DNA of 64,000 nucleotides from Gaiellales bacterium (GTDB lineage Bacteria; Actinomycetota; Thermoleophilia; Gaiellales; Gaiellaceae). The position numbers were made by a program, and so were the translations under genes. Location: the NCBI GenBank assembly GCA_038230035.1, contig JBBRNX010000009.1, positions 11,882-75,881 on the forward strand. Reading direction: 5' to 3'. The notes beneath the pieces are model-generated. The model searched no databases, was not told the DNA's origin, and saw only the letters and a list, made by a program, of their open reading frames with translations. Positions within the stretch are counted from its first letter, which is position 1, and every line of letters begins with the position of its first letter. Below, piece by piece: positions 1-19,546 of this stretch.

Positions 1-378
1 GCGCCCACCGAACCGCCAGGCGAACAATGTCGCCACAAAGCTCGTGCCTACCCACGTCAACTTCGTCAGCGCGTCGTAGATCCAGGTCACGAGCGTGTCG
101 AGCCCGCTGCTGATCCCCGTCACGACGCGGAAGAACAGGTTCGGGTGCGCCGCATTCGACTGATCCGAGAGCCAGATCTGGAAGCTGTCGAGATGGCCGG
201 TGAGCGAGTTCCACTCGAGCGCGGCCGGCCACGTGTATTTCCCCTTCGCCGCGTAGTAGCCGACGAGCATCCCCACCACGACGAGCGCAGACAGGACGGC
301 GCGGCTCCGCCACCACGGCCGGTGATCGATCACGACGGGCGCGGGTACGGCTCCGACGACTTCGTCGACGGTGGTCAT
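1..378 (-). CDS. ABC permease, ProW/OpuAB-like; only the 5' part lies in the window
   Basis: Hand translation from ATG 378: MTTVDEVVGAVPAPVVIDHRPWWRSRAVLSALVVVGMLVGYY...; hydrophobic, open to the window edge, starts 2 nt after the proV stop. Confidence 0.7.
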   Translation of the reverse strand, partial: MTTVDEVVGAVPAPVVIDHRPWWRSRAVLSALVVVGMLVGYYAAKGKYTWPAALEWNSLTGHLDSFQIWLSDQSNAAHPNLFFRVVTGISSGLDTLVTWIYDALTKLTWVGTSFVATLFAWRFGGR

Positions 379-380
379 GG

Positions 381-1454: not shown

Positions 1455-1566
1455 GCAGCATTCCCCGGCGGCGGATTCAGCAGCACGAGCGCACGATCAT
1501 AGTCCGGTTCGCGTCGTTCGTCACGCGCGGAGGACACCTGTTTGACGCCCTCGCCGAGGACTCCTA

Positions 1567-1604
1567 GACTCATCATGTGGCCTAACCGTTTCACATGATG
1601 AGTC
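1567..1604. promoter_or_regulatory. 13-bp perfect inverted repeat, probable operator between divergent proV and iclR
   Basis: GACTCATCATGTG-N12-CACATGATGAGTC ends immediately before ATG 1605. Confidence 0.55.
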
Positions 1605-2402
1605 ATGAGTACAACTGATCACACCCAATCCGGCACCCCACCTGGAACGCAGGCGATCGATCGCGCGGCGCAGCTCCTCGTCCATGTGCTCGAGAGCGCG
1701 CTGCCACCTTCTGTTGGCGGATTGGCGATCGCTGCAGGCCTGCCGAAGAGCACGACCTCGCGCCTCGTGCGCGCTCTGGAACGCCAGGGGCTCGTCGAAC
1801 GCGACGGCGCCCGCGGGAGCGTTCTTCCCGGGCCCGTGCTGACCCGCTTCGCGCGCGGGACAGCGCGAGACGCAGATCTCGTTGCCGCCGCCGCCGACAC
1901 GCTCCGCCGCATTTCGGAAGAGTGCGGTGAGACGGTCAACCTCGCCGTTCCCGGCCGCCACGGGGTCGACCATCTCGCACAGCAGGACAGCCGGCACTTC
2001 ATCGGCGGCACGAACTGGGTCGGCCGCGCCGCCCCGCTCCATTGCACGGCGAACGGGAAGGTGCTGCTCGCTTTCGGGGCAGCAGAGCTCACGAACGGAC
2101 CGCTAGAGCGACTCACCCCGCAGACCGTCGTCGACCCCGGAACGCTGGCCGGCGAGCTCGCGACCGTGCGCAAGCGCGGCTACGCGACGACACTCGAGGA
2201 GCTCGAGCCCGGCCTCGTCGCGGTTGCCGCGCCTGTCTTCGACCCGGGAGGCGGCGACGCAATTGCCGCGCTCAGCATCTCCGGGCCTACGATTCGCCTC
2301 ACACCGGCCCGGTTGCACGAGCTCGGAGCGGTGCTGATCGACCACGCGGCCGGGCTCTCGGCACGGCTCGACCACCACGACGCGAAGCGAGGAGCCGCAT
2401 GA
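1605..2402 (+). CDS. IclR-family transcriptional regulator
   Basis: N-terminal QAIDRAAQLL..GLPKSTTSRLVRALERQGLV HTH; C-terminal CTANGKVLLA, RKRGYA, ELEPGLVAVAAPV. Confidence 0.92.
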   Translation: MSTTDHTQSGTPPGTQAIDRAAQLLVHVLESALPPSVGGLAIAAGLPKSTTSRLVRALERQGLVERDGARGSVLPGPVLTRFARGTARDADLVAAAADTLRRISEECGETVNLAVPGRHGVDHLAQQDSRHFIGGTNWVGRAAPLHCTANGKVLLAFGAAELTNGPLERLTPQTVVDPGTLAGELATVRKRGYATTLEELEPGLVAVAAPVFDPGGGDAIAALSISGPTIRLTPARLHELGAVLIDHAAGLSARLDHHDAKRGAA

Positions 2403-3067
2403 CGAACGAGGAGATCCTGCAAGGGCTGTTCGACGACACGCTCGTCGGGAACGCGCCGTCGGTGAAGGCGTTGACCGAGGAGGGCCTCGCGGCCGGTATG
2501 AACCCTGAGACCTTGCTCTACGACGCGTTGATCCCCTCGCTCGAGGAGGTCGGCGCCCGGTTCGAGCGCGGCGACTTCTTCGTCCCCGAGATGCTGATCG
2601 CCGCGCGGGCGATGCAGGGCGCACTCGACATCCTGCGCCCGCTGCTCGCCGAGACGGGCGCCAAGCCGATCGGCACCTTCGTCATGGGCACCGTCAAGGG
2701 CGACGTGCACGACATCGGCAAGAACCTCGTCAACATCATGCTCGAGGGAGCAGGCTTCACGGTCTACGACCTCGGAGTGAACGTGCCGCCGGAGCGCTTC
2801 GTCGAGCAGGTCGAGGAACACAAGCCCGACATCGTCGGCTTCTCGGCCTTCCTGACGACGACGATGCCGATGTTCAAGGCGAACATCAACGCGCTCGAAA
2901 AGGCCGGCCTGCGCGACAAGGTGATCGTGATGGTCGGCGGTGCGCCGGTGACGCAGGAGTACGCGGACGTTGTCGGCGCCGACGGCTATGCAGCGGACGC
3001 GTCGACGGCGGTGCGGCTGGCGAAGGACCTGATCCAGAAGGCGCGCGCGGCGGTCGCCGTCGGCTGA
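2399..3067 (+). CDS. Cobalamin-binding corrinoid protein (MttC/MtgC-like)
   Basis: B12 motif GDVHDIGKNLV..MLEGAGF, SAFLTTTM, VGGAP; 4-nt ATGA overlap with the iclR stop. Confidence 0.92.
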   Translation: MTNEEILQGLFDDTLVGNAPSVKALTEEGLAAGMNPETLLYDALIPSLEEVGARFERGDFFVPEMLIAARAMQGALDILRPLLAETGAKPIGTFVMGTVKGDVHDIGKNLVNIMLEGAGFTVYDLGVNVPPERFVEQVEEHKPDIVGFSAFLTTTMPMFKANINALEKAGLRDKVIVMVGGAPVTQEYADVVGADGYAADASTAVRLAKDLIQKARAAVAVG

Positions 3068-3426
3068 TGGGACTTCTGACCGGCATCGAGCGCATCACGA
3101 AGGGGCCGGTCTTCGGCTGCCACATGTGCGGGCAGTGCGTGCTCCACTCGACCGGCTTGACCTGCCCGATGAACTGCCCGAAGCAGCTCCGCAACGGCCC
3201 GTGCGGCGGCGTGCGCGCCGACGGCGGCTGCGAGGTGAAGCCCGAGATGCGCTGCGTCTGGCTGAAAGGATGGGAGCGCTCGCAGAAGCTGCCGTGGAAA
3301 GAGGAGTTCAACCAGCTCCGTCCCCCGGTCGACAATCGCCTTTGGGATACCTCGTCCTGGAAGAACTACATCACGAAGCGTGACCGTGAGACCCCGGACG
3401 GCTGGACTGGCGCTGGGGAGGCATAG
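3067..3426 (+). CDS. metV: MetV-like Cys-rich subunit (MTHFR C-terminal domain family)
   Basis: GCHMCGQC..TCPMNCPKQLRNGPCGG..GCEV..RCVW Cys pattern; directly upstream of metF. Confidence 0.8.
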   Translation: MGLLTGIERITKGPVFGCHMCGQCVLHSTGLTCPMNCPKQLRNGPCGGVRADGGCEVKPEMRCVWLKGWERSQKLPWKEEFNQLRPPVDNRLWDTSSWKNYITKRDRETPDGWTGAGEA

Positions 3427-4365
3427 GTGTCCCGCCTCGAGGAGCGACTGACCGCAGGTGAGTTCGTCGTCACGGCGGAGATGCCGACGATCGACGGCGG
3501 CGGCCTCGACGCAGTTGCCTTCCAGCTCGAGCCGATGGCGCCGTGCCTCGATGCCGCGAATGCGACCGACAACACGGCTGCACACGCCCACGCGTCGCCG
3601 CTCTCCGTCTCGATCGCGCTCCAGAAGCTGGGGATGGAGCCGATCATGCAGCTCGTCTGCCGCGACCGGAACCGGCTCGGCCTGGAGGCCGAGATCGTCG
3701 GCGCGGCACTGCACGGGATCGAGAACATCTGCTGCCTGACCGGGGACGACGTCTCCGCCGGCGACGAGCCCGAGTCGCGGCGCGTGTTCGACCTGGACAG
3801 CCCGCAGCTCCTCGCGGCGGCACGGGCGATTCGCGACGGCCGGTACCTCTCCGGGCGGGCGATCGAACCGGCTCCGCATCTCTTTCTCGGCGCGGTCGAG
3901 AACCCCGGTGCGCCACCGTTCGAGTACCGCGTCGAGCGCTCGCTGAAGAAGGCCGACGCCGGCGCGCAGTTCATGCAGCTACAGCTCTGCTTCGAGCGCG
4001 ACCATCTCGAACGGTTCATGACCGAGGCGGTGGCCGCCGGTCTCGCGAAGCGCGTCCACCTGATCCCGTCGATCTGCATCGTCCGTACCGCTTCAGCGCT
4101 CCGCTTCATCGACGACAAGGTGGCCGGCATCAACGTTCCGGCCGATCTCATCGCCCACGTCGAAGCTGCCGACGATCAGCTGGAAGCGTGCTTCGAGATC
4201 GCCTACGACCTCGCCCGGCACGCGCTCGGCCTGCCGGGAGTGGCGGGCCTGCACTTCATCAGCTTCCGCAAGGACGCCGGTATCGCCAAGCTGTGCGCCC
4301 GACTTGGGATTCCGCCACGCAGCGAAAGGGAGACGAGTGGATACCGTTCTGCGATCGCAGTCTAA
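3427..4365 (+). CDS. metF: Methylenetetrahydrofolate reductase
   Basis: EPIMQLVCRDRNR, ICCLTGDD, VFDLDSPQLL, KADAGAQFMQLQ motifs. Confidence 0.88.
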   Translation: MSRLEERLTAGEFVVTAEMPTIDGGGLDAVAFQLEPMAPCLDAANATDNTAAHAHASPLSVSIALQKLGMEPIMQLVCRDRNRLGLEAEIVGAALHGIENICCLTGDDVSAGDEPESRRVFDLDSPQLLAAARAIRDGRYLSGRAIEPAPHLFLGAVENPGAPPFEYRVERSLKKADAGAQFMQLQLCFERDHLERFMTEAVAAGLAKRVHLIPSICIVRTASALRFIDDKVAGINVPADLIAHVEAADDQLEACFEIAYDLARHALGLPGVAGLHFISFRKDAGIAKLCARLGIPPRSERETSGYRSAIAV

Positions 4366-5191
4366 GACCGTCACAATCGGCGCCGGCCAGCCGTTCTGCA
4401 TCATCGGCGAGCGCATCAACCCGACCGGCCGCAAGGCGTTCCAGGCGCAGCTGCAGAAGGGCGTCCTCTCGCAGATCGAGATCGACGTCGCCGAGCAGGT
4501 CGGTGGCGCCGACGTGCTCGACGTCAACGTGGGTGATCCGCTCGCCGACGAGGTCGGGCTGATGGGCCAAGCGATCCCGCTCGTCCAGGGTCTCACCGAT
4601 CTGCCTCTCTGCATCGACTCGTCCGTGATCGAGGCGCTCGAAGCCGGCCTCGCCGCGTACGAGGGCAAGGCGCTCGTCAACTCGGTCACGGGTGAGGATG
4701 AGCGGCTGGAGCTAATCCTGCCGATCGTCGCCCGGCATGGCGCCGCGGTGATCGGCCTGGCGAACGACGACGAGATCCGGATGGAGCCCAAGGATCGCGT
4801 CGCGATCGCGAAGAAGATCGTGTCGGCGGCGGGCGACTTCGGCATCCCGCCGGAGGACATCGTGATCGATCCGCTTGCGATGCCGATCGGCGCGGAGCCG
4901 CGCGCCGTCACGGCGTTCATCGCGACGCTGCATCTGCTGCGCGACGAGCTCGGCGTCAACACGACCTGTGGCGCCTCGAACACCTCGTTCGCGATGCCCG
5001 GTCGGCACGCGCTCGGCGCCACGTTTCTCGCCATCGCTCAGAGCCACGGCCTGACGAGCGCGATCATGGACGCCCGTACACCCCAGTGCGTCGACGCCGT
5101 CCGCGCGAGCGACCTCCTGCTCGGGCGCGACGAGTGGGGCGCGACGTGGATCAGGCGCTACCGCGAGGCGCAGGCGGCCGCATCGTCTTGA
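4337..5191 (+). CDS. Methyltetrahydrofolate:corrinoid methyltransferase (pterin-binding, AcsE/MtgA-like)
   Basis: IIGERINPTGRK, DVLDVNVG, PLCIDSS, LVNSVTGE, IVIDPL, GASNTSF; GTG start behind AAAGGGAG. Confidence 0.88.
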   Translation: MDTVLRSQSKTVTIGAGQPFCIIGERINPTGRKAFQAQLQKGVLSQIEIDVAEQVGGADVLDVNVGDPLADEVGLMGQAIPLVQGLTDLPLCIDSSVIEALEAGLAAYEGKALVNSVTGEDERLELILPIVARHGAAVIGLANDDEIRMEPKDRVAIAKKIVSAAGDFGIPPEDIVIDPLAMPIGAEPRAVTAFIATLHLLRDELGVNTTCGASNTSFAMPGRHALGATFLAIAQSHGLTSAIMDARTPQCVDAVRASDLLLGRDEWGATWIRRYREAQAAASS

Positions 5192-7095
5192 GCAGCGCTG
5201 CCGCACCCGAGGACGAGGCAACCGGGCAGGCGGGGCCGAGTCGCGTCCGGCTCCGCTTCGTCGAGGGAGTGGCCGAGGCGGCGAAGGAAACCGAGACGCG
5301 GGTGCCAGCGGGGACGACGCTCTTCGACGCGGCGAGCTGGAACGCGATCGCCATCGACTCGACCTGCGGCGGCCATGGCACCTGCAAGAAATGCAAGGTG
5401 CGGGTCATCAACGGCGGCGCCGCGATCTCCGAGCTGGATCCGCGTGCGTTCACCCCCGACGAGCTGCGCGACGGCTGGCGGCTCGCGTGCCGCGCGCTCG
5501 CGACGAACGACCTTGTCGTCCACGTACCGCCGCTCCAGACCCGGCCGAAAGCTGCGCTCGCCGGCGTCGGGCGTCACGTCATCCTCCGGCCGGCCGTGCA
5601 GAAGCGACATCTCGTTCTCGACGAGCCGTCGCTCGAGGATCAGGCGGGCGATCTCGAGCGCGTATTCGCGGCGATGGACGACCTCGAACTGCACGCGTCG
5701 CTCGACGTTCTGCGCGAGTTGCCAGGACTGCTGCGTCGCGCGAACTACGACGTGACGGCTGTGATCGTCGACGACGAGCTGATCGCGCTCGAGCCCGGTG
5801 ACACGACTGCCCGCGTGCATGCACTGGCGTTCGACCTCGGCACGACGACGGTGGTGGCGACGCTGCTCGATCTCTCCACCGGCCAGCCGCTTGCCGTACG
5901 CAGCATGTTGAACGCGCAGCACCGCTTCGGCGCCGATGTGATCGCGCGGATCTCCGCGACCATGATGGAGCCGGGCGCGCTCGGCGAGCTGCGGCGCCTT
6001 GCGCACGAGACGCTCGCGGAGCTGACGGCCGAGGTCTGTGCTGAGGCTGGCGTCGCACCGGAAGAGATCTACGAGATCGTGGTCGTCGGAAACGTGACGA
6101 TGATCTCGCTCGCGCTCGGGATCGATCCCGAACCGCTCGGAATGGCGCCGTTCATCGTCGCGACACGCCACCCGATTCCCGCCACCGCCTCAGACTTCGG
6201 TGTCGTCGTTCACCCGCGCGCGCCTGCCGTGACATTCCCCGCGATCGGCGCGTACGTCGGCCCGGACATCCTCGCCGGCATCGTCGCGACCGGCCTTGCA
6301 CGCGATAGGCGCGTGCGGCTGTTCGTCGATGTCGGCACAAACTGCGAGATCGTGCTCGGCTCCTCAGCCGAGGCGGTGGCGACGGCGGCGCCCGCGGGAC
6401 CGGCGTTCGAAGGCGCCACGATTCGCTGCGGCATGCGCGCCGCGGAGGGCGCAATCGAGGGCGTGAAGATCGCGGACGACGGCGTCGAGATCCAGGTGAT
6501 AGGCGACACCGACCCGGTCGGCATCTGCGGCTCTGGACTCGTCGACGTCGTCGCCGAACTGCTGCGCCTCGGCTTGCTCGCACCATCCGGGCTCATGCTC
6601 GGAGTCGAAGACGTCCGTGAGCAGATGCCCAGCTTGGCGGATCGCTTCGTTCGTGTGCCGAATGGAAAGGGCGGCGAGGAGCGTGTGTTCGTCCTGGCCT
6701 GGCGTGGAGACGATCCTGCGCTCGCCGTCTATCTCTCGCAGGTCGACGTCCGCCGGCTGCAAGAGGCGAAGGCGGCGATCGCAACCGGCTGGCGGATGCT
6801 CCTGCAGCGGCTCGGGATCGAAGAATCAGACGTCCAGCAGGTGCTCCTCGGCGGGTCCTTCGGCGCCTATCTCACCCCGGCGAGCGCCGTCCGTATCGGC
6901 CTCGTCCCGAAGCTGTCGGTGACGAGAATCGTCGCCGCCGGAAACGTCGCGGGAGAGGGTGCGAAGATCGCCGCGCTCTCGCTGCCCGAGCGCCACGCCG
7001 CGCTCGCGCTGCTCGACGAGGTCGAGTACGTCGAGGCGTCCGGCAACGCCGAATACAACGATCTCTTCCTCTCAGAATTGACGTTTCCGGCATGA
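5188..7095 (+). CDS. ATP-dependent corrinoid reductive activator (2Fe-2S + ASKHA; RACo/RamA/AcsV-like)
   Basis: [14 protein letters not shown] 2Fe-2S; [39 protein letters not shown]; TTG start overlaps the upstream TGA. Confidence 0.88.
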
Positions 7096-7700
7096 GCCGG
7101 GTCGCGATCATCGCCTGCGGCGTGCTGACGCTGCACCTCAACGAGATCGCGCGCCGCCGGGGCTGGGAGATCGACGTCCACCCGTTGCCGCCCGAGCTGC
7201 ACAACCGGCCGGAGAGGATCGCCGTCCGCGTGGAACGCGAGATCGATCGGCTCGCCGGGAGGTACGAACGGATAGCCGTCGCGTACGCCGATTGCGGGAC
7301 CTATGGTGCGTTGGACGAGGTTGTCGCGCGCCGCGGCGTCCGGCGACTGTCCGGCGACCACTGCTACGACGTCTTCGGCCGCGACGAGGTGCGCGAGGCG
7401 CTCGCCGAACAGCCCGGCACGTACTTCCTCACGGACTTCCTGGCCCGCAGTTTCGAGCGGACGATTCTGCGCTCGCTCGGGCTTGACCGCCATCCCGAGT
7501 TGCGGGACGCGTACTTCGGCAACTACACCCGCGTCGTCTGGCTCGCGCAGCGGCCGACACCCGTGCTGCGAGCCGCCGCCGAGCGTGCCGCCGCAGCACT
7601 CGGTCTCCCGCTCGAGGTGCGCGAGGTCGGCGATCCCGGCCTGGAACGCCAACTCGAACAACTCGTCAACAGTTCGTCCGCCCTCGAGGAGGTCGCATGA
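7092..7700 (+). CDS. DUF1638-family protein
   Basis: [37 protein letters not shown]; family usually adjacent to corrinoid methyltransferase genes. Confidence 0.8.
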
Positions 7701-9136
7701 TCGTCAACAAGATGCCGCGGTACGAGATCCTCTCCGAGGACGCGATGGCGGCTCTCGACCGGGGTTGGCGACGCATCGTCAGCGAGCTCGGGATCGAGTT
7801 CATCCTCCCCGAAGCGCTCGAATACTTCCGCGAGGCGGGCCAGACGATCGAGGGCCAGGCGGTGAAGCTCGACCCCGACTTCGTGCTGGAGCAGATCGCG
7901 AAGGCGCCGCGCAAGTTTGACCTCCAGGCGCGCAACCCCGAGCGGAACATCCACGTCGGCGGCCAGCACATGGCGTTTGCGTCGGTGTACGGCTGCCCGT
8001 TCGTGCGTAAGGGCGACGAGCGGCGCGAAGCGACGATGGACGATTTCGAGAACCTCGTCCGGCTGTCGCAGTCGTTCGATCAGCTCGACTCGCCCGGCGG
8101 CACGATCTGCGAGCCGAACGACCGCCCGCTCGACTCGCGCCACCTGGACATGGTCTTCGCGCTGCAGACGCTCTCGGACAAGCCCTACATGGGCTCGGTC
8201 ACCTCCGGCCCGAACGCCGCGGACACGATCCGCATGTCGGAGATCCTGTTCGGTGGCCGGGAGGCGATCGAGAAGACGCCTGCATCGATCTCGCTGATCA
8301 ACGTCAACTCGCCGCTGCGCTACGACGACCGGATGCTCGCCGCGCAACTCGAGTACAACCGCGCGAACCAAGCGGTGGTGATCACGCCGTTCATCCTGAT
8401 GGGAGCGATGTCGCCCGTGTCGATCCCGGCGGCGCTGACCCAGCAGATCGCCGAAGCGCTCGCCGGCATCGCCCTGTCACAACTTGTGCGTCCTGGCTGC
8501 CCGGTCGTGTTCGGCTCGTTCCTCTCGAACACCGACATGCAGTCAGGCTCACCGAGCTTCGGCACGCCAGAGTCCGCGATCGGGCTCCTCTGTACCGGCC
8601 AGATAGCGCGCCATTTCGGACTCCCGTGGCGCAGCGGGGGCGGACTCACAGCCAGCCAGACCGTCGATGCGCAGGCCGCCTACGAGGCGATGATGACGAT
8701 GCTGCCGACGTTCCTCGCCGGCGCGAACTTCGTCATGCATTCGGCCGGCTGGCTCGAGTCGGGGCTCGTGTCGTGCTTCGAGAAGTTCATCGTCGACGTC
8801 GAGATCCTGCGCATGCTGCAGGACGAGTTCAAGCCGCTCGAGGTGACCGACGAGACGATCGCCTTCTCGGCCCACGAGGAGGTCGGCCACGGCGGCCACT
8901 TCCTCGGCGCGACGCATACGCTGGAGCGCTTCCGCGACTGCTTCTACCGGCCGCTGCTCTCGTCGACCGAGAACTTCGAGCGCTGGAACCGCCTCGGGGC
9001 GCGCGACACAACCGTCCGCGCCGGCGAGATCTGGCGCAAGACGCTGGAGGAGTACGAGGAGCCGACGCTCGATTCGGTGATCCGCGAGGAGCTGGCGGAG
9101 TACGTGTCGACGCGGCGGACAGAGCTAGGCGACTAG
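7697..9136 (+). CDS. Trimethylamine methyltransferase (MttB) superfamily, pyrrolysine-free (MtgB-like quaternary amine methyltransferase)
   Basis: [72 protein letters not shown]; no in-frame TAG. Confidence 0.9.
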
Positions 9137-11737: not shown

Positions 11738-11795
11738 AGGGCCACGCTAATCCTGAGCTGTGAGCCCAGCGTTAGCGATCTGATTGGATTGCGGC

Positions 11796-14060
11796 ATGAC
11801 CGCCGTCGAGGAGCCACGCACAGCGCAGTTCGTCCGACCGGACGGCAAGGAGAAAGTCACCGGAGCGGGTCGCTACACCGCCGACCTCACGCTCACCGGC
11901 CAGCTCGTCGCGAAGTTCCGCTACGCCGACCACACCCACGCGCGCATCCTGCGCATCGACGCGACGAAAGCGCGCGCACTGCCAGGCGTGCTCGCAGTCC
12001 TCACCCACGAAGATGTCCCGGATGTCCTCTACGGCGGCATGGTCAAGGACCGGCGGCTGTTCGCGAAGGAGAAGGTGCGTTTCGAGGGGGACGTCGTCGC
12101 CGGCGTCGCCGCGACCACCGCCGAGATCGCCGAGCGCGCCGCTGCGCTGATCGAGATCGACTACGAGCCGCTGCCCGCGATCACCGACTTCGAAGCCGCA
12201 GAGCACAACAGCGCGCTGGTTCACGAGGACTGGGAGAGCTACGACGCCGACGATGTGCTCCTCCGCGCGGGTAACCGGATGGGCTACTCGACGATCGTCA
12301 AAGGCGACGCCGAAGCAGCCATGTCCGCGGCGGACGTCGTCGTCCAGAGCCGCTTCGTGACCGACCCCGTGCAGGGCGTCCCGATCGAGCCGCGCGCTGT
12401 CATCGCGCAGTGGCAGGGCGACAAGGTAACGGTCTGGACGTCGACGCAGGTTCCGTACGCAGCACGCGGCGGAATCGCGCACACGCTGCAGATCCCGGAA
12501 TCGAACGTGCGCGTGATCGTGCCTCTGCTCGGCGGCGGCTTCGGCGCGAAGTGCGACTTCCACTACGAAGGCCACATCGCGGCGCTCGCCAAAGCTGCCG
12601 GCCGTCCGGTGAAGCTCGTCTTCACGCGGCGCGAGGAGTTCTTCGCCGTCGGCCACCGCCGCGAAGGAATGGTGATCGAGCTCGAGACCGGCGCCCGCTC
12701 CGACGGCACGCTGCTCGCGCGGCGCGGCCGGCTCGTCCTCGACAGCGGCGCCTACTGCGGCGAGGGCGGCTTCTTCGCACAGATGGCCGCGATGCATGCG
12801 CTCGGCCCGTACAAGATCGAGACCGCGGACATCGAGTCCTCGCTCAACTACTCCACCAACCAACCGTCGTCGTCGATCCGCGCGCCCACGGCGCCGCAAG
12901 TGTGCTGGGCGCTCGAGCAGCACATGGACGAACTCGCCGAAGCGCTCGGGATGGATCCGGTCGATCTTCGCCGGCACACACTCGTCGAGGAAGGCTCGGT
13001 CACCGCGACCGGCCAGGTGCTGGAGCGCATCGCGATGAAGGAGACCCTCGAGAAAGCGGTCGAGCTGATCGGCTACGGGAAGGAGCTGCCCGACGACGAG
13101 GCGATTGGCATCGCGGTCGGCTGGTGGCCATGCTTCACGGCGAGCTCGGGCGCCTACGTGAAGCTGAACGGCGACGGCTCCGGGACGATCATCACCGGCG
13201 CGCAGGAGAACGGCACCGGCGCGGTGATGGCGATGCCCAAGTACGTCGCCGAGGAGCTCGGCATGCAGCCGGAGGACTTCTCGATGCTCTATCAGGACAC
13301 CGACGCCGCCCCGTCGGACATGGGCTCGTGCGGCTCGCAGACGACGTTCAACAGCGGGCGCGCGGTGATCGCAGCGGCCGTCGATCTGCGCGACCAGCTG
13401 CTGGATGCTGCGTCCGAGAAGCTGGAAGCGGCGCGCGACGACCTCGAGCTCGTGGGCGGCGCGGTTCGCGTGAAGGGCTCGCCGGAGAAATCGGTCACGA
13501 TCGCGGACCTCGCCGGCAGCGGGACGTTCCACGGTAAGGGCGCGGGCGTGATTCCCGACGGGCCGGAGGCGTCGCCGGCCGAGGGCTGCCTCGGACGTCT
13601 CGGACTCGAGTCGTTCCATGCACCGCAGCTGATCGCGCACGCAGCGCGGGTGCGGGTGGATCGCGCGACCGGCGTCGTCCGCGTACTCCAGATCGCTGCC
13701 GCGCACGACTGCGGGCGGATCCTGAACCGGATAGGAGCCGACGGCCAGGTCTACGGCGGCGTCGTGATGGGCATCGGTCAGGCGCTCTCCGAAGGAACGC
13801 AGCTCGACGAGGACGGCCGCCAACGCAACGCCCATCTCACCGACTACAAACTCGTTACCGCGTCGGACGCGCCGCAGATCGACGTCGCCTGGATCGAGAC
13901 GGACACGCCGAACGCCGGGCCGAAGGGCTCGAAGGGCGTCGGCGAGCCGCCCTGCGTACCGACAGCCGGGGCGATCGCGAATGCCGTGGCGAAGGTGATC
14001 GGGTCGCGGGTGCGCGCATTGCCGATGACGCCGGAACGGGTCTGGGAGGCTGGGTCATGA
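11796..14060 (+). CDS. Xanthine dehydrogenase-family molybdopterin-binding subunit
   Basis: KVTGAGRYTAD, HARILRID, GGGFGAK, GAQENGTG, GSCGSQTT, AHDCGRILN, GGVVMGIG, KGVGEPP. Confidence 0.92.
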   Translation: MTAVEEPRTAQFVRPDGKEKVTGAGRYTADLTLTGQLVAKFRYADHTHARILRIDATKARALPGVLAVLTHEDVPDVLYGGMVKDRRLFAKEKVRFEGDVVAGVAATTAEIAERAAALIEIDYEPLPAITDFEAAEHNSALVHEDWESYDADDVLLRAGNRMGYSTIVKGDAEAAMSAADVVVQSRFVTDPVQGVPIEPRAVIAQWQGDKVTVWTSTQVPYAARGGIAHTLQIPESNVRVIVPLLGGGFGAKCDFHYEGHIAALAKAAGRPVKLVFTRREEFFAVGHRREGMVIELETGARSDGTLLARRGRLVLDSGAYCGEGGFFAQMAAMHALGPYKIETADIESSLNYSTNQPSSSIRAPTAPQVCWALEQHMDELAEALGMDPVDLRRHTLVEEGSVTATGQVLERIAMKETLEKAVELIGYGKELPDDEAIGIAVGWWPCFTASSGAYVKLNGDGSGTIITGAQENGTGAVMAMPKYVAEELGMQPEDFSMLYQDTDAAPSDMGSCGSQTTFNSGRAVIAAAVDLRDQLLDAASEKLEAARDDLELVGGAVRVKGSPEKSVTIADLAGSGTFHGKGAGVIPDGPEASPAEGCLGRLGLESFHAPQLIAHAARVRVDRATGVVRVLQIAAAHDCGRILNRIGADGQVYGGVVMGIGQALSEGTQLDEDGRQRNAHLTDYKLVTASDAPQIDVAWIETDTPNAGPKGSKGVGEPPCVPTAGAIANAVAKVIGSRVRALPMTPERVWEAGS

Positions 14061-14910
14061 GCGTCGTCTCGTATGTGAGCGCCGCTTCGATCGACGACGC
14101 CCTCGCCGCACTGGCAGGCGGCGCGCGACCTGTCGCCGGCGGAACCGACCTCGTCGTCGGCGCACGCTCGGGCAAGTCGACGCTGCCCGGGAGCCTTGTT
14201 GCGATCCACCGTCTGGTGGAGTTGCGCGGCGTCACGGTGACCGCAGACGGACTTCGACTCGGCGCGCTCGCGAGCCACGAGGCGATCTGCGCGAACGCCG
14301 AGGTTCAGGCGCACTACTCCGCACTTGCGGACGCATGCGCGATCGTCGGCTCGCACGCGACGCGCGCGCAGGGAACGCTCGGCGGCAACCTGATGAACGC
14401 GTCACCTGCGATGGAGACGGGCGGGCCGCTGATCTGCCTCAGCGCCACGGCAACACTGCGATCGGCAACCGGCGAGCGGACGATCGACGTGGCCGACCTG
14501 TTCACTGGCCCCGGGAAGACGGTCGCCGAGCCGGGCGAGCTGCTGATCTCCGTCGACGTGCCGGCGCCTGCGGCTGGAAGCGGCAGCGCGTATCTGCGAC
14601 TCGAGTACCGGCGGCAGATGGAGATCGCCGTCGTCGGCGCGAGCGCGCTCGTCACGGTCGACGACGGCAAATTCACTGATGCACGGATCGCGATGACCGC
14701 GCTGTCCCCGACGATCCGCCGCGTGCCCGAGGCCGAGGCGGCTCTCGTCGGCAGCGACGGCGGCGCGGCGGCGATCGCGGCTGCCGCCGCGGCGGTCTCG
14801 GCGGCGTCGATGCCGATCTCGGACGTGCGCGGCTCGGCCGACTACCGGCGGGCGATGGCGGCCGTCATTGCGAGCCGCGCCATCGAGCATGCGCTTGCGA
14901 GGGCCAGGGC

Positions 14911-14914
<4 letters not shown>
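14057..14914 (+). CDS. XDH-family FAD-binding subunit (CoxM/CutM-like)
   Basis: PVAGGTDLVV, GTLGGNLMNASPA, DVRGSADYRR. Confidence 0.9.
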
Positions 14915-15373
<459 letters not shown>

Positions 15374-15375
<2 letters not shown>

Positions 15376-15401
15376 CGAGGGCCGCTTTCGCAGCCCTCGT
15401 C
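15374..15401. terminator. Hairpin between the convergent XDH operon and glnII
   Basis: GACGAGGGC-N10-GCCCTCGTC 9-bp stem; no U-tract. Confidence 0.4.
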
Positions 15402-15412
15402 GACGTTGTGAG

Positions 15413-16477
15413 CTAGGCGACTGCCAGTTCGGCTTCCGTGATCGTCCCGTTCGAGCTCGCCGCGCGGACCGTCGCGATCGTCTCGATGATCCGGCCGGCG
15501 ATCCGGTACGGGTCGCCCTGCGAGTTGGGCCGGCGATCCTCGAGGTAGCCGCGGTACCCGTTCTCGACGAAGCTGTGCGGCACGCGCACCGACGCGCCAC
15601 GGTCGGCGACGCCGTAGTTGAAGGTGTCGATCGACTGCGTCTCGTGCAGGCCTGTCAGTCGCAGGTGGTTGTCCGGCCCGTAGACCGCGATGTGCTCCGC
15701 CTTGTTGTCGTCGAACGCCTCCATCAGCGCCTCGAAGTACTCCCGACCACCGATCTCGCGCATGTACTTCGTGGAGAAGTTCGCATGCATGCCTGAGCCG
15801 TTCCAGTCGACTTCGACGCCGAGCGGCTTGCAATGGAACTCAACGTCGACCTGGTAGCGCTCGCACAGCCGCAGGAGCAGATAGCGCGCAATCCAGACCT
15901 CGTCGGCGGCCCGCTTCGAGCCCTTGCCGAAGATCTGGAACTCCCACTGGCCTTTCGCGACCTCGGCGTTGACCCCCTGATGGCCGAGCCCTGCCTCGAG
16001 GCAAAGGTCGATGTGAGCGTCGACGATCTCGCGCGCGACGTCGCCCACGTTCTTGTAGCCGACGCCTGTGTAGTACTCGCCCTGCGGCGGCGGGAAGCCG
16101 CCACCCGCGGGAAAGCCGAGCGGTGCGCCGTCGCGATAGAGGAAATACTCCTGCTCGAACCCGAACCACGTGCCCGGGTCGTCTGCGATCCCGGCGCGGC
16201 TGTTGCTCGGATGCGGTGATCCGTCCGGGAGCATGACCTCGCACATCACCAGCGCCCCGTTCGAGCGCGCCGGATCCGGAAAGACGCTGACCGGCTTCAG
16301 GATGCAGTCGGAGTCGCTTCCGTCCGCCTGCCGGGTGGAGCTCCCGTCGAATCCCCAATGCGGGATCTGGTCGACGGTCGGGAAGCTCGCGAACTCGGCG
16401 ATCTTCGTCTTCGAACGGAGGTTCGGCGCGGGCTCGTAGCCGTCGAGCCAGATGTATTCGAGCTTCATCTTCGTCAT
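15413..16477 (-). CDS. glnII: Glutamine synthetase type II
   Basis: MTKMKLEYIWLDG, WGFDGSST, FEQEY, NAEVAKGQWEFQ, DWNGSGMHANFS, EDRRPNSQGDPY; about 354 aa; SD GGGAG before ATG 16477. Confidence 0.9.
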   Translation of the reverse strand: MTKMKLEYIWLDGYEPAPNLRSKTKIAEFASFPTVDQIPHWGFDGSSTRQADGSDSDCILKPVSVFPDPARSNGALVMCEVMLPDGSPHPSNSRAGIADDPGTWFGFEQEYFLYRDGAPLGFPAGGGFPPPQGEYYTGVGYKNVGDVAREIVDAHIDLCLEAGLGHQGVNAEVAKGQWEFQIFGKGSKRAADEVWIARYLLLRLCERYQVDVEFHCKPLGVEVDWNGSGMHANFSTKYMREIGGREYFEALMEAFDDNKAEHIAVYGPDNHLRLTGLHETQSIDTFNYGVADRGASVRVPHSFVENGYRGYLEDRRPNSQGDPYRIAGRIIETIATVRAASSNGTITEAELAVA

Positions 16478-16501
16478 CGGATCTCCCGGTTGTCGTGGAC
16501 C

Positions 16502-16535
16502 AATAAAAAAGCCCCAGGACTCGAAGTCCTGAGGC
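16502..16535 (-). terminator. Intrinsic terminator in the glnII 5' leader (attenuator)
   Basis: Minus strand GCCTCAGGAC-TTCGA-GTCCTGGGGC (10 bp, one G-U) followed by TTTTTTATT, upstream of the start codon. Confidence 0.8.
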
Positions 16536-16569
16536 GACATTGCCTCCAGCGCGGCGTTCGTTGCCGCGC
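16531..16569 (-). promoter_or_regulatory. ANTAR-like tandem hairpin element
   Basis: GCGCGGC-AACGAAC-GCCGCGC TG GAGGC-AATGTC-GCCTC; both loops have A1 and G4; hairpin 2 overlaps the terminator's 5' arm. Confidence 0.65.
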
Positions 16570-16660
16570 GCACGCCTACTTTAGACCAAGCGCGCCGACC
16601 GACGCAACCCTCAATCAGCTCGATGCGGGCAGAGGCGCCTGACGGGACACGCCTGCTGTG

Positions 16661-17028
16661 TCACAGCCCGAACCGTTCGTTCGTCTGTGGGTCGTAGAGG
16701 GCACAGCCAAAGCTGTTGGCGATGTCAATCATCTGATTCGCGCGTTCGTGGTCGAGCGGCCTCAACGTGATCCAGACGTATTGGCTCGTCCATGCGACCT
16801 CGAAGCTCGACATTTCGTCCGCGCTCATCCAATGGATCCACTCATCCTCCGGACCGTTCGGCTCCCGAACAGCCTCAGGGAATGCGCTCAGTAGTGCACT
16901 CAGGAAGTCATCGATCGGAAGATCCGGCAGCCCTTCCACCCTGCGGCCCTCGCTGAACGCGTCGAGAATCGCATCGGGTGGTCGGTCTCCGACTCGCCCT
17001 GGCGCCAAAACAGAAGGTCGTGACCCAC
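16661..17028 (-). pseudogene. Conserved-type hypothetical protein split by an apparent 1-nt deletion
   Basis: GTG 17028 behind GAGAGGA gives MGHDLLFWRQGESETDHP, then the sense continues in another frame as DAILDAFSEG..ALYDPQTNERFGL; shift at about 16976-16978. Confidence 0.5.
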
Positions 17029-17058
17029 CCGAAGGGTCCTCTCGCTCGGTGGTGCTCG

Positions 17059-18711
17059 CTACTCACTGACTTGGTGGCGGTAGAACGGTACTGGCTCCGG
17101 GGGTAGGGGGGTGTTGCCGAGGATCAGGTCTGCTGACTTCTCGGCGGTCATCATCACGGGCGCGTAGATGTTGCCGTTCGTCACGTAGGGGAAGACAGAC
17201 GCGTCGACGACGCGCAGGCCATCGAGGCCGTGCACGCGCATCGTCAGTGGGTCGACGACCGACTGCTCGCCCACGCCCATCGCACACGTGCACGAGGGGT
17301 GCAGCGCGGTCTCCGCGTCGCGCGCGACCCAGTCGAGGATCTCCTCGTCCGTCCCCACGCTCGGGCCGGGTGAGATCTCGCCTTCGCTGAACGGCTCGAA
17401 CGCCGACTGCTCGAGGATCGAGCGCGAGACGCGCACCGCCTCCACCCACTCTCGCTTGTCCTGCTCGGTCGACAGGTAGTTGAAACGCATTGCCGGATGG
17501 ACGCGCGGGTCGGTCGACGTGATCTTGAGCGAGCCGCGCGCATCCGAGTACATCGGGCCCACATGCACCTGGTAGCCATGCCCGCCGGCCGGCTGCGAGC
17601 CGTCGTAGCGGATCGCGATCGGCAGGAAGTGGAACATCAGGTTCGGGTAGGCGACGTCGTCGTTCGAGCGGACGAAGCCGCCGCCTTCGAAATGGTTCGT
17701 CGCGCCCGAGCCAGAGCGGAAGAACAGCCACCGGAAACCGACCCACGGGCGGTTCCGCCACTTCATCGCAGGCGCCACCGAGACCGGCTGCTTCGAGCCG
17801 TGCTGGATGTAGACCTCGAGATGGTCCTGCAGGTTCTCCCCGACGCCGGGCAGGTCGTGGACGACACCAACGCCAAGCGCTTCCAGCTCGGCGAACCGCC
17901 CGACCCCGGAGAGCTGCAACACCTGCGGCGAGTTGATCGCGCCGCCGCACAGAATCACCTCGCTCGCGCGTGCAACGTGTGCATCACCGCGACCGGTCGA
18001 GTACTCGACCCCGACCGCCCGCGTGCCTTCGAACACAACGCGTGTCACGAACGCGCGCGTCCTCACCTCGAGATTCGGCCGCCCCATGACCGGATGGAGG
18101 TAGGCGCGCGCCGCGCTCAGCCGTCGGCCGCGCCGGATGTTGCGATCGAAGGCGGCGAACCCCTCCTGCCGGTAGCCGTTCACGTCGTCGGTCAGCGGAT
18201 AGCCGGCCTCCTGCACAGCCTCGAAGAAGGCGCCGAAGAGCGGGTTCGTGACCGGGCCGCGCTCCAGTACGAGTGGCCCGTTGTGGCCGCGGAACGGATC
18301 GTCGTCCGCTGCAGCCAGGCAGGTCTCCATGCGCTTGAAGTACGGCAGGCAGTGGGCGTGGTCCCAGGTTTCCATCCCGGCGTCGGCGCCCCACCGCTCG
18401 AAGTCGAGCGGGTTGCCGCGCTGGAAGATCATCCCGTTGATCGACGAGGAGCCGCCGAGCACCTTGCCGCGCGCGTGGTAGATCCGCCGGCCGCCCATGA
18501 ACGGCTCGGGCTCCGACTCGTACTTCCAGTCGTAGAACTTGCTGCCGATCGGGAACGCGAGCGCCGAGGGCATGTGGATGAAGACGTCCCAGGGATAGTC
18601 AGACCGACCGGCTTCCAGGACGAGAACGCGCGTGGACGGGTCGACGCTGAGCCGGTTAGCTAGCGCGCACCCCGCGGAGCCGCCGCCGACGATGACGAAG
18701 TCGTAGTCCAA
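17059..18711 (-). CDS. betA: Choline dehydrogenase (GMC oxidoreductase)
   Basis: [61 protein letters not shown]; TTG start chosen. Confidence 0.9.
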
Positions 18712-18724
18712 GGTAGGCGCGATG

Positions 18725-19546
18725 CTATCCCGCGAGTAACGCGACCCCCACGGCAACGACCACTGCGCCGGCCAGCCGGGCTCGGCCGACGTGCTCCTTC
18801 AGAAGCGGCGCGGCGAGGGCCGTCGCGATCACGATGCTCGTTTCACGCACCGCGGCGACCGACGCGGCCGACGCGCGCTCGAGCGCAGCCAGCACGAGCG
18901 CGTAGGCGCCGAACGATGCGAGGCCGGCGGCAATCGCGGGGAAACCGATCTCAGCGCGTAGCCGCGTCGACCCTCTGGCGATCAGCACGGCGCCCGCGTA
19001 GCCGATCGTCGCCGAGCCCATGCTCAGCTCGAGGTACGTGATTGGCGCCGCATACCGGATGCCATGCTTGTCGAGCAACGTGTACGCGGCGATCACCGCC
19101 GCGATCGCGAGCCCGAAGCGGACGCCGCCCGAGCCTGTGGGCCGCCGGAAGCCGCGAACCAAGATCACGCCCGCGGCGACGAGACACACGCCGACGACCT
19201 GTACGACCGACGTCGTCTGAGACAGCGCGGTCGCGCCGACGACCAGGACGAGCACCGGCGCGAGGCCACGCGCGAGTGGGTAGACGACCGATACCTCGGC
19301 GCGTCGATAGGCGGCCGTCAGCAGCGCGAAGTAGACGAGCTGGAGCACGGCTGTGACCGCAATGAAGGGCCACGCTCTGCTGTCCGCGCGCCACGTCACC
19401 GCGGTCACCGGTGCGAAGACGACGATCGCCGCGATGAGTGCGACTGCCGTTGCGCTCTCAATGTCTTTTGCACGCGCGAGGAGCAGGTTCCAGAAGGCGT
19501 GGAGCACGGCAGCCGCGAGCGCGAAGACGAGAGCGAGGAGCGGCAT
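18725..19546 (-). CDS. DMT/EamA-family transporter
   Basis: [28 protein letters not shown]; about 10 TM segments. Confidence 0.88.

What the first reader, a model, noticed from the sequence alone, without database searches (positions are those of the whole stretch)
16502..16583. ANTAR-type dual-hairpin antiterminator controlling glutamine synthetase II
On the minus strand a TAAAGT -10 (16578-83) is followed by hairpin 1 (loop AACGAAC), hairpin 2 (hexaloop AAUGUC) and a strong terminator with a U-tract. Both loops have the A1/G4 signature of ANTAR (NasR/AmiR/EutV) targets. The 3' arm of hairpin 2 (GCCUC) is also the 5' arm of the terminator, so the two are mutually exclusive. This is the classical antitermination layout. 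Actinobacterial gln genes are usually GlnR-controlled, so RNA-level control of glnII would be a distinct nitrogen-regulation logic. Caveats: loop 1 is 7 nt, and no ANTAR protein is in the window.
Basis: partly seen in the sequence, partly recalled or inferred. Interest (0 to 1): 0.75.

Follow-up and report, generated by a model that had tools for sequence, protein, structure and literature searches.

The report
ANTAR-type antiterminator leader of glnII
The glutamine synthetase II gene in this window is preceded by a conserved RNA leader that stops transcription early by default, and it most likely needs an ANTAR-type RNA-binding regulator to read through; this is a known kind of nitrogen control, found here in a bacterial group where it had not been described.

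Summary
On the minus strand a promoter (-35 16602-16607, -10 16578-16583) is followed by hairpin P1, hairpin P2 (GAGGC-AAUGUC-GCCUC) and the only strict intrinsic terminator in the 64 kb. P2 and the terminator share the arm GCCUC. None of 100 shuffles of the window gave such a layout.

The leader is a family. I found 23 further copies in Thermoleophilia/Gaiellales-like contigs: 19 before glnII, 3 before type I glutamine synthetase, 1 before a phosphinothricin-acetyltransferase-like GNAT gene. Covariation supports P1, P2 and the terminator.

Only P2 is conserved in sequence (closing C-G, loop RAYGNN, G4 invariant). Its core GGC-AAnGnn-GCC equals the site that the Geobacter ANTAR regulator GnfR binds in nitrogen-gene leaders. 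P1 is a generic GC-rich hairpin, usually a tetraloop, and is absent from the GSI leaders. The "both loops A1/G4" signature is therefore particular to this window.

The window has no ANTAR gene. In relatives, a PdtaS/PdtaR-like kinase and REC-ANTAR pair lies within 10 kb of glnII (5 of 17 glnII-anchored loci; 3 of 3 PdtaR-anchored loci).

ANTAR leaders before glutamine synthetase genes were already predicted in 2012. Verdict: a real ANTAR-type antiterminator and a new member of a known kind. The regulator is inferred, not shown.

The parts
16602..16607 (-). -35-like hexamer TTGCGT, 18 nt upstream of the -10
   Evidence: Read. TTGACG/TTGCGN hexamers stand at the same distance in related leaders. 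The strict sigma-70 scan did not report it, so this is an inferred promoter.
16578..16583 (-). -10-like hexamer TAAAGT. The predicted transcription start is near 16571.
   Evidence: TAnnnT hexamers lie 7-12 nt before P1 in the 15 related glnII leaders where I marked one. A 212-nt contig from an RNA-Seq-labelled soil run ends at 16571; this is only suggestive.
16549..16569 (-). P1: 7-bp GC hairpin with 7-nt loop AACGAAC, at the 5' end of the transcript
   Evidence: -15.2 kcal/mol alone. The homologous helix in relatives has double changes at 4 of 6 pairs, and 0 of 500 shuffles reach its covariation score. Loop sequence and size are not conserved.
16531..16546 (-). P2, the antiterminator hairpin GAGGC-AAUGUC-GCCUC and the likely protein recognition element
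   Evidence: 95% of cells paired over 20 leaders. There is a compensatory G-C to A-U change at one pair, a closing C-G in 20 of 20 and loop G4 in 20 of 20. The core GGC-AAnGnn-GCC is the same as the GnfR-bound site CAGGCAANGGCGCC.
16502..16535 (-). Intrinsic terminator: 11-bp stem (16535-16511), U6 (16510-16505), then AUU. Its 5' arm contains the 3' arm of P2.
   Evidence: Covariation: 91.7% paired, 7 of 11 pairs with double changes, and 0 of 500 shuffles reach its covariation score. It is the only strict terminator in the window. P1+terminator is -35.2 kcal/mol against -30.4 for P1+P2+upper stem.
16497..16503 (-). Conserved UUGGUCC directly after the U-tract, role unknown
   Evidence: Present at the same place in 9 of 18 glnII leaders (window, L004, L008, L046, L087, L088, L141, L153). 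It does not covary with the terminator stem.
16483..16487 (-). Ribosome-binding site GGGAG, 5 nt before the ATG
   Evidence: Read.
15413..16477 (-). glnII, glutamine synthetase type II, 354 aa: the regulated gene
   Evidence: Pfam Gln-synt_N and Gln-synt_C. NCBIfam GlnII is the best model at 373 bits, below its equivalog cut-off of 500. It is 80-82% identical to Gaiellales/Thermoleophilia GSII.

Best explanation
This is a transcription-attenuation leader of the ANTAR-target type.

Transcription starts about 7 nt after the TAAAGT box. P1 forms first at the 5' end. By default the GCCUC segment then pairs downstream into an 11-bp terminator followed by U6, and most transcripts stop before glnII.

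When nitrogen is limiting, an activated ANTAR-domain protein binds the P2 hairpin (GAGGC-AAUGUC-GCCUC). In this lineage that protein is most likely the REC-ANTAR response regulator of a PdtaS/PdtaR-like two-component system. It would recognise the closing C-G pair and the loop RAYGNN, with G4 essential. Binding holds GCCUC in P2. That leaves only a 6-bp upper stem that is no longer next to the U-tract, so RNA polymerase reads into glnII.

In relatives the same switch controls type I glutamine synthetase, a phosphinothricin-acetyltransferase-like GNAT and, through operon structure, PII and AmtB.

Shown here: the structures, their mutual exclusivity, their conservation and covariation, the regulon, and the synteny with REC-ANTAR genes.

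Inferred: the identity of the binding protein, the signal, the direction of regulation, and that the window's own genome has the protein.
For: 1. Architecture and energetics. The terminator conformer is about 4.8 kcal/mol more stable than the antiterminator conformer, so the default state is off and an activator is needed.

2. Family. There are 23 further copies, all in high-GC Thermoleophilia/Gaiellales-like contigs. Every one of the 8 genome loci labelled Thermoleophilia, Gaiellales or Actinobacteria has it. No Verrucomicrobia or Proteobacteria locus with an equally similar GSII has it.

3. Covariation supports P1, P2 and the terminator. In L008, L087 and L141 a C-to-U change in the shared arm is matched by a G-to-A change in the P2 5' arm, which lies outside the terminator.

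4. The most conserved bases are the P2 5' arm and loop, which the terminator does not need.

5. The P2 core equals CAGGCAANGGCGCC, the sequence overlapping the terminators of Geobacter nif/glnK/amtB leaders. Phosphorylated GnfR (REC-ANTAR) binds it in vitro (PMC2995071).

6. The hexaloop with G4 and the overlap of the P2 3' arm with a terminator are the defining ANTAR-target features (PMC3369931).

7. Synteny. A REC+ANTAR protein (PF03861, 68 bits) next to a GAF-HisKA_2 kinase lies within 10 kb of glnII in 5 of 17 leader loci and in 0 of 144 other loci. Starting instead from three PdtaR homologues on long contigs, all three have glnII with the leader, GSI and the kinase within 10 kb.

8. The regulon is thematically coherent: glnII, GSI, the GNAT, PII and amtB.

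9. ANTAR regulons are known to centre on nitrogen genes, including glutamine synthetases (PMC3369931).
Against: - No ANTAR gene lies in the 64-kb window, and the rest of this genome could not be searched.
- The canonical target has two hexaloops, each with A1 and G4. Here loop 1 is 7 nt in the window, mostly a tetraloop of variable sequence in relatives, and P1 is absent from the GSI leaders.
- Loop 2 position 1 is G in 9 of 20 leaders, although mutating A1 weakened EutV binding.
- The P1-P2 linker is 0-3 nt in most glnII leaders. That is shorter than the 5-12 nt of the eut leaders, and shortening the eut linker to 3 nt impaired induction.
- Synteny among related genomes may partly reflect shared ancestry rather than function.
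- There are no transcript-end data. The RNA-derived contigs only show that read-through transcripts exist in relatives.
- Rfam has no ANTAR-target model, so no curated model could be applied.
Confidence: 0.7

Rival explanations
1. The P2/terminator switch is the same, but the factor that stabilises P2 is not an ANTAR protein. It could be an uncharacterised RNA-binding protein, or a small molecule such as glutamine or 2-oxoglutarate acting on the RNA directly as a riboswitch.
For: There is no ANTAR gene in the window. Loop 1 lacks the ANTAR signature in relatives, and single-hairpin versions exist. Loop 2 has G1 in 9 of 20 leaders.
Against: The conserved part is one 5-bp hairpin with a 6-nt loop. 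It has no junction, internal loop or pseudoknot partner that could form a ligand pocket. There is no match to the glutamine riboswitch or any other Rfam family even at E <= 10. The P2 sequence equals a site bound by an ANTAR protein. REC-ANTAR genes are syntenic with the leader.
Confidence: 0.15
2. It is a constitutive attenuator or 5'-UTR structure with no switching. The terminator merely damps expression, or P1 and the stems stabilise the mRNA, and P2 is a by-product of constraints on the terminator sequence.
For: The terminator conformer is the minimum-energy fold. P2 has only one covarying pair. A 5'-terminal hairpin such as P1 is a common mRNA stabiliser (general knowledge).
Against: The 5' arm and loop of P2 lie outside the terminator, yet they are the most conserved positions of the leader: G4 and the closing pair in 20 of 20. 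The G-to-A change in that arm compensates the C-to-U change in the shared arm. The same P2 is kept before three different kinds of gene while the terminator stems differ.
Confidence: 0.07
3. The inverted repeat GAGGC-N6-GCCTC is a DNA operator for a dimeric transcription factor, for example a GlnR-like regulator acting as a roadblock. The RNA hairpin is incidental.
For: P2 is a near-perfect DNA palindrome about 25-40 bp downstream of the predicted start. Actinobacterial gln genes are classically under DNA-binding GlnR or AmtR (general knowledge).
Against: Two leaders keep the pair as G-U (GGGC/GCCU), which is compatible with RNA pairing but breaks the DNA symmetry. The loop is asymmetric and strand-specific (RAYGNN). 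The repeat always overlaps a terminator stem with a U-tract on the coding strand. The terminator stem covaries in the way RNA helices do.
Confidence: 0.05
4. The terminator is simply the 3' terminator of the upstream 115-aa ORF (16661-17008), and the hairpins upstream of it are unrelated to glnII.
For: The upstream ORF is co-directional, and the terminator lies about 150 nt after its stop codon.
Against: The element travels with glnII, GSI and GNAT genes whatever lies upstream: cation-efflux, MFS and ABC genes, some of them divergent as in L046. A conserved -35/-10 lies between the upstream gene and P1.
Confidence: 0.03

Closest known systems
GnfK/GnfR antitermination of nitrogen-fixation leaders in Geobacter sulfurreducens (Ueki & Lovley 2010, PMC2995071)
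   Same: A REC-ANTAR response regulator is involved. The conserved RNA sequence CAGGCAANGGCGCC lies upstream of and overlaps an intrinsic terminator in the leaders of nitrogen genes (nifH, nifEN, nifX, glnK, amtB). The core GGC-AAnGnn-GCC is the same as P2 here. The default state is termination, relieved under nitrogen limitation.
   Different: The phylum differs (Deltaproteobacteria against deep-branching Actinomycetota). The Geobacter promoters are RpoN-dependent, whereas these look sigma-70-like. The targets here are glutamine synthetase genes (glnII, GSI), and GS was not among the terminator-bearing genes named in that paper. The partner kinase here carries a GAF domain (PdtaS-like), whereas GnfK has no sensor domain. 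Nothing here is tested experimentally.
Canonical ANTAR target RNA (EutV/eut, NasR/nasF, AmiR/amiE; Ramesh et al. 2012, PMC3369931), including the predicted ANTAR leaders before glutamine synthetase genes in its Table S2
   Same: Two adjacent stem-loops are followed by a terminator whose 5' arm is the 3' arm of P2. Loop 2 is a hexaloop with G at position 4 and, in this window, A at position 1. The association is with nitrogen metabolism and specifically with glutamine synthetase genes.
   Different: Loop 1 is not a conserved A1/G4 hexaloop: it is 7 nt here and mostly a tetraloop in relatives. P1 is missing from the GSI leaders. Loop 2 position 1 is A or G. The linker is only 0-3 nt in most leaders. 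In the supplementary tables that paper lists no Conexibacter, Rubrobacter, Solirubrobacter or other Thermoleophilia.
Actinobacterial ANTAR-target RNAs and PdtaS/PdtaR (Mehta & Ramesh 2021, PMC8164766; M. tuberculosis Rv1626, PDB 1s8n)
   Same: The phylum is the same. The syntenic regulator is a PdtaR-type REC-ANTAR protein, about 40% identical to Rv1626 in the ANTAR domain, with a GAF-HisKA_2 kinase like PdtaS. Relaxed loop rules (one deviation allowed) would admit this window's leader.
   Different: Most actinobacterial targets described there overlap the RBS or start codon and are thought to act on translation, and only a few have terminators. This one is a clear transcription attenuator. 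That survey lists a single Conexibacter hit (a hypothetical protein) and one glutamine synthetase hit (Actinomyces, RBS-sequestering), not these leaders. In the papers I searched, PdtaS/PdtaR is not linked to gln genes.

Membership tests
ANTAR-target RNA (Ramesh 2012; Mehta 2021) | Two adjacent stem-loops of at least 3 bp each, separated by a short linker | tested here: met
   Window: P1 has 7 bp, P2 has 5 bp, the linker is 2 nt. Both helices are supported by covariation in the glnII leaders. This is not met in the GSI leaders L046b, L087b and L162b, where no convincing P1 fits between the promoter and P2.
ANTAR-target RNA (Ramesh 2012; Mehta 2021) | Both terminal loops are hexanucleotide loops | tested here: inconclusive
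   Loop 2 is a hexaloop in every leader of A2. Loop 1 is 7 nt in the window. By MFE in relatives it is a tetraloop in most, a hexaloop in 4 and 8 nt in one. The window alone would pass the relaxed rule of one deviation.
ANTAR-target RNA (Ramesh 2012; Mehta 2021) | A at position 1 and G at position 4 of each loop | tested here: inconclusive
   Loop 2: G4 in 20 of 20; position 1 is A in 11 and G in 9. Loop 1: the window has A1 and G4 (AACGAAC), but no relative has A1 and the loop sequence is not conserved.
ANTAR-target RNA (Ramesh 2012; Mehta 2021) | The 3' arm of P2 is shared with the 5' arm of an intrinsic terminator | tested here: met
   Bases 16535-16531 are in both helices. The overlap is kept in all 20 aligned leaders, with covariation in both helices.
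ANTAR-target RNA (Ramesh 2012; Mehta 2021) | An ANTAR-domain (PF03861) protein is encoded in the same genome | not testable with these tools
   There is none in the 64-kb window (tblastn; Pfam on 60 called genes). The rest of the genome is not available; the source is a sediment metagenome. In relatives, REC-ANTAR lies within 10 kb of glnII in 5 of 17 and 3 of 3 loci.
ANTAR-target RNA (Ramesh 2012; Mehta 2021) | Sequence agreement with an experimentally bound ANTAR site | tested here: met
   The GnfR-bound consensus is CAGGCAANGGCGCC (nifH: CAGGCAAGGGCGCC). The window has GAGGCAAUGUCGCC, and L008 and L087 have GAAGCAAYGGCGCU. This is a direct comparison by eye, not a model score.
ANTAR-target RNA (Ramesh 2012; Mehta 2021) | Protein-dependent antitermination and binding that depends on loop A1/G4 | not testable with these tools
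   This needs EMSA, in vitro transcription or genetics.
Intrinsic (Rho-independent) terminator | A GC-rich stem-loop immediately followed by a U-tract | tested here: met
   11 pairs, 7 of them G-C, then TTTTTTATT. It is the only one in the window under a strict descriptor.
Glutamine riboswitch (glnA RNA) and other Rfam cis-regulators | Match to the family covariance model | tested here: not met
   No relevant hit in 15000-18000 at E <= 10. No family reaches its gathering score anywhere in the window.
Glutamine synthetase type II (GlnII) | Gln-synt_N and Gln-synt_C domains, about 340 aa, best match to the GlnII model | tested here: met
   Pfam finds both domains. NF041605 scores 373 bits over residues 4-336, which is the best model but below the equivalog cut-off of 500.

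The most novel reading that the evidence does not exclude
In Thermoleophilia the PdtaS/PdtaR two-component system is the nitrogen-status regulator of ammonium assimilation. In mycobacteria the physiological role of this system is still debated. Here its GAF-domain kinase would sense a nitrogen metabolite, and its REC-ANTAR regulator would antiterminate glnII, glnA, PII-amtB and a GS-inhibitor acetyltransferase. It would do so through a single recognition hairpin (GGC-RAYGNN-GCC) rather than the canonical pair of A1/G4 hexaloops. That would give PdtaS/PdtaR an ancestral function and define a one-hairpin variant of ANTAR recognition.
Probability: 0.45. Interest if true: 0.6.

Novelty: new member of a known kind. 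Interest (0 to 1): 0.45.

Why it matters
It extends ANTAR antitermination of nitrogen assimilation genes to a deep-branching, poorly cultured actinobacterial class. Actinobacterial gln genes are otherwise thought to be controlled at the DNA level, by GlnR or AmtR, and most predicted actinobacterial ANTAR RNAs are thought to act on translation.

It gives a clean, testable target set (glnII, GSI, a GNAT, PII-amtB) and a candidate signal pathway for PdtaS/PdtaR-type systems.

It also shows, by comparison, which part of the dual hairpin is really constrained: P2, its closing pair and G4. That is useful for improving search models for ANTAR targets in high-GC genomes.

It is not a new mechanism.

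Tried and rejected
- Rfam found nothing relevant around the site at E <= 10. The three weak hits (Burkholderia ncS037, two snoRNAs) are chance. No family reaches its gathering score in the whole window.
- The exact-sequence look-up of the GSII protein found no record. The best relatives are only 80-82% identical, so the source genome is not in the collections.
- I searched the window and 39 loci with two covariance models for more copies. The window has only this one. In particular there is none before the formamidase gene at 47480-48421, an AmiR-type candidate.
- The type I GS of L027 has no leader.
- I looked by eye for loop-loop or loop-to-downstream complementarity that could make a pseudoknot or ligand pocket and found none. 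The conserved UUGGUCC does not covary with the terminator.
- Sequencing runs: the window comes from a sediment metagenome with no RNA run. Contigs from RNA-labelled soil runs of relatives cover the leader and the ORF and end near the predicted start. Contigs have no direction or reliable depth, so termination could not be assessed.
- My first regex screen missed L153 (loop AUUGGG); the model search recovered it.
- The automatic P2 finder mis-set P2 in several rows. I used only the P1 loops from that call.

Full report
**1. What is in the sequence**

Read on the minus strand, the 183-nt gap between a 115-aa ORF (16661-17008) and the glutamine synthetase gene holds these elements in order:

| Element | Sequence | Coordinates |
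|---|---|---|
| -35 | TTGCGT | 16607-16602 |
| spacer | 18 nt | |
| -10 | TAAAGT | 16583-16578 |
| P1 | GCGCGGC / AACGAAC / GCCGCGC | 16569-16549 |
| linker | UG | |
| P2 | GAGGC / AAUGUC / GCCUC | 16546-16531 |
| terminator | GCCUCAGGACU / UCG / AGUCCUGGGGC | 16535-16511 |
| U-tract | U6 | 16510-16505 |
| conserved motif | UUGGUCC | 16503-16497 |
| RBS | GGGAG | 16487-16483 |
| start codon | ATG | 16477 |

- The terminator scan reports this site: 11 pairs, 7 of them G-C.
- The 123-nt region folds at -61.1 kcal/mol against -45.4 +/- 4 for shuffles (z = -3.9).
- The gene is a GlnII-type glutamine synthetase.

**2. Is it more than chance?**

- A strict descriptor (perfect stem of at least 7 bp, loop 3-8, T5) finds exactly one intrinsic terminator on both strands of the 64-kb window, and it is this one.
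- It is also the only case of an ANNGNN hexaloop hairpin overlapping a terminator. None of 100 dinucleotide-preserving shuffles gave any.
- A sequence profile built from 19 related leaders, leaving the window out, hits only this site at E = 5e-10.

**3. The leader is a conserved family**

- GSII of the window is at most 82% identical to anything in the genome and metagenome collections. The best hits are Gaiellales/Thermoleophilia MAGs and, at the same identity, Verrucomicrobia.
- All eight genome loci labelled Thermoleophilia, Gaiellales or Actinobacteria carry the same promoter-P1-P2-terminator layout before glnII. No Verrucomicrobia or Proteobacteria locus does.
- Metagenome contigs add eight more (L083, L084, L087, L088, L094, L098, L141, L153).
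- Model R1 also found copies that are not before glnII:
  - L083 11786-11876, before a GNAT of the arsinothricin/phosphinothricin-acetyltransferase family.
  - L046 6305-6383 and L087 2291-2390, before type I glutamine synthetase (TIGR00653, 536 bits).
- Three further glnII leaders and one GSI leader came from loci reached through the regulator gene.
- In L046 the leader heads glnII-GNAT-PII-amtB. In L006 it heads glnII-GSI.
- The window holds a single copy.
- From its GC content (67.7%), its nearest GSII and this lineage-restricted leader, I infer that the window comes from a Thermoleophilia-like actinobacterium in a sediment metagenome. This is an inference, not a placement.

**4. Structure support**

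- P1: 4 of 6 pairs show changes on both sides. 88.5% of cells are paired, against 36-64% when partners are slid. Most unpaired cells are the window's own row, which is misaligned because of its 7-nt loop. No shuffle of 500 reaches the covariation score.
- Terminator: 91.7% paired, 7 of 11 pairs with double changes, and 0 of 500 shuffles reach its covariation score.
- P2: 95% paired, but it is mostly invariant. One pair changes G-C to A-U in three leaders. In those leaders the C-to-U change in the shared arm leaves a U-G pair in the terminator, and the P2 5' arm, which is outside the terminator, changes G to A. That is what selection for P2 pairing predicts.
- The 5' arm and loop of P2 are the best conserved bases of the leader, although the terminator does not need them.
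- For the window, P1+terminator is -35.2 kcal/mol and P1+P2+upper terminator stem is -30.4. The default state is termination, and something must stabilise P2.

**5. What is and is not ANTAR-like**

The published definition is two stem-loops, hexaloops with A1 and G4, a linker, and P2 overlapping a terminator (PMC3369931; PMC8164766).

- Loop 2 over 20 leaders:

| Position | Bases |
|---|---|
| 1 | A 11, G 9 |
| 2 | A 19, U 1 |
| 3 | U 11, C 9 |
| 4 | G 20 |
| closing pair | C-G 20 |

- Loop 1 is different. It is 7 nt (AACGAAC) in the window. By MFE in relatives it is a tetraloop in most (ACGA, GAGA, CGGA, AGGU, UCGA, CCAU and others), a hexaloop in four and 8 nt in one. No relative has A at position 1.
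- In the GSI leaders the -10 box sits so close to P2 that no P1 fits.
P2 is the constrained element.
- P1 may be a low-specificity site for the second ANTAR monomer, or a 5'-end stabiliser. I cannot tell which.

**6. Link to a characterised ANTAR site**

[quoted passage not shown] GnfR (REC-ANTAR) binds an RNA with CAGGCAAGGGCGCC only when phosphorylated by GnfK. gnfK and gnfR mutants terminate nifH transcripts prematurely (PMC2995071). The window has GAGGCAAUGUCGCC, and L008 and L087 have GAAGCAAYGGCGCU. The stem GGC/GCC, the loop AAnGnn and the position relative to the terminator are all the same.

**7. Link to an ANTAR protein**

- I recalled the Rv1626 (PdtaR) sequence from memory and verified it as PDB 1s8n. 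With its ANTAR domain, tblastn finds no ANTAR in the window. Pfam on 60 called genes of the window also finds none.
- Among 160 glnII-anchored loci, hits occur only in five, and all five bear the leader (L002, L006, L027, L046, L084).
- Each hit is a 189-aa REC+ANTAR protein (PF03861, 68 bits) beside a GAF-HisKA_2-HATPase kinase, which is a PdtaS/PdtaR-type pair.
- As a second sample I started from the regulator. Three close homologues on contigs of 0.5-0.8 Mb all have the kinase, GSI and glnII within 10 kb. glnII carries the leader in all three, and GSI carries it in one.
- Order and orientation differ between loci, so this is more than one inherited arrangement. The genomes are related, however, and the window itself lacks the pair within 15 kb on the downstream side of glnII (lower coordinates) and 47 kb on the upstream side.

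**8. Comparison with what is known, and novelty**

- Ramesh et al. 2012 already reported that ANTAR targets lie before nitrogen genes, including synthases for glutamine. Their Table S2 mentions glutamine synthetase 25 times, for example in Alkaliphilus and Caldicellulosiruptor. The supplementary tables contain no Conexibacter, Rubrobacter, Solirubrobacter or other Thermoleophilia entry.
- Mehta & Ramesh 2021 found few terminator-linked ANTAR RNAs in Actinobacteria, one Conexibacter hit before a hypothetical protein, and one RBS-sequestering hit before an Actinomyces GS gene.
- I found no paper linking PdtaS/PdtaR to gln genes.
- The mechanism is therefore known. Its occurrence in Thermoleophilia, its GS-centred regulon, the degenerate P1 and the synteny with PdtaS/PdtaR are new observations.

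**9. Limits**

- No experiment and no directional transcript data exist for this organism.
- Contigs from RNA-labelled soil runs of relatives span P2 and the terminator into the ORF. One ends at 16571, 7 nt after the -10. This fits the predicted start and shows that read-through transcripts exist. It says nothing about termination.
- The binding protein, the signal and the sign of regulation are inferred.

Noticed in passing
window 16497-16503 (-), and 16584-16589 (-): UUGGUCC directly follows the terminator U-tract in the window and in 8 related glnII leaders, without covarying with any stem. The window also has TTGGTC just upstream of the -10 box, making a direct repeat. Several relatives instead have GGACCGCTA at the -10, which is the inverted form. 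Its function is unknown; it could be a DNA operator or a UTR element.
   Followed up: partly
window 381-9136 (both strands): A cluster for corrinoid-dependent methyl transfer. It holds an ABC ATPase (381-1454), a B12-binding corrinoid protein (2042-3067), a DUF5981/MTHFR pair (3067-4365), the RACo corrinoid activator (5086-7095), DUF1638 (7092-7700) and an MttB-family methyltransferase (7697-9136; PF06253, 634 bits). With the GMC (choline-dehydrogenase-like) oxidoreductase at 17059-18756, this suggests quaternary-amine (glycine betaine or choline) demethylation near glnII.
   Followed up: no
window 11784-15375 (+): A three-subunit molybdenum hydroxylase of the xanthine/CO-dehydrogenase family (large 11784-14060, FAD 14057-14914, 2Fe-2S 14911-15375) converges on the 3' end of glnII.
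   Followed up: no
window, whole: Under a strict descriptor the 64-kb window has only one canonical intrinsic terminator, and it sits in a 5' leader rather than at a gene end. The window has no tRNA gene and no Rfam family at gathering score.
   Followed up: yes
window 16661-17008 (-): The 115-aa ORF directly upstream of the leader has lower GC3 (0.73) than its neighbours. It has no Pfam or NCBIfam match.
   Followed up: partly
window 47480-48421 (-) and 53044-55197 (-): A formamidase/acetamidase (FmdA_AmdA) gene, the kind of gene AmiR controls in Pseudomonas, has no copy of the leader. A large GAF-PAS-PAS-LuxR regulator lies at 53044-55197.
   Followed up: partly
L046 9892-13337; L083 11786-12405; L006 9884-12454: In relatives the leader heads the operons glnII-GNAT-PII-amtB (L046) and glnII-GSI (L006). 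A second full copy of the leader stands before the GNAT alone (L083). The GNAT best matches arsinothricin/phosphinothricin N-acetyltransferases, enzymes that inactivate glutamine synthetase inhibitors, so GS and a GS-inhibitor defence appear to be co-regulated.
   Followed up: partly
L027 678-2090 (-): The GAF domain of the PdtaS-like kinase gives weak NCBIfam matches to PtsP (EI-Ntr) and NifA. From my own knowledge, the GAF domains of those two proteins sense glutamine or 2-oxoglutarate. This is a lead for the signal, not a finding.
   Followed up: no
L002 2202-2301; L162 about 347-448 (-): Two glnII leaders carry an extra small hairpin (GGAGAUC-UG-AUCUC and GGAUC-UCUU-GAUCU) inserted between P1 and P2. 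The P1-P2 distance is therefore not fixed.
   Followed up: no
window 35682-38468 (+): A class II (B12-dependent) ribonucleotide reductase with a TSCPD domain. Together with the corrinoid proteins in the same window, it suggests heavy cobalamin use.
   Followed up: no
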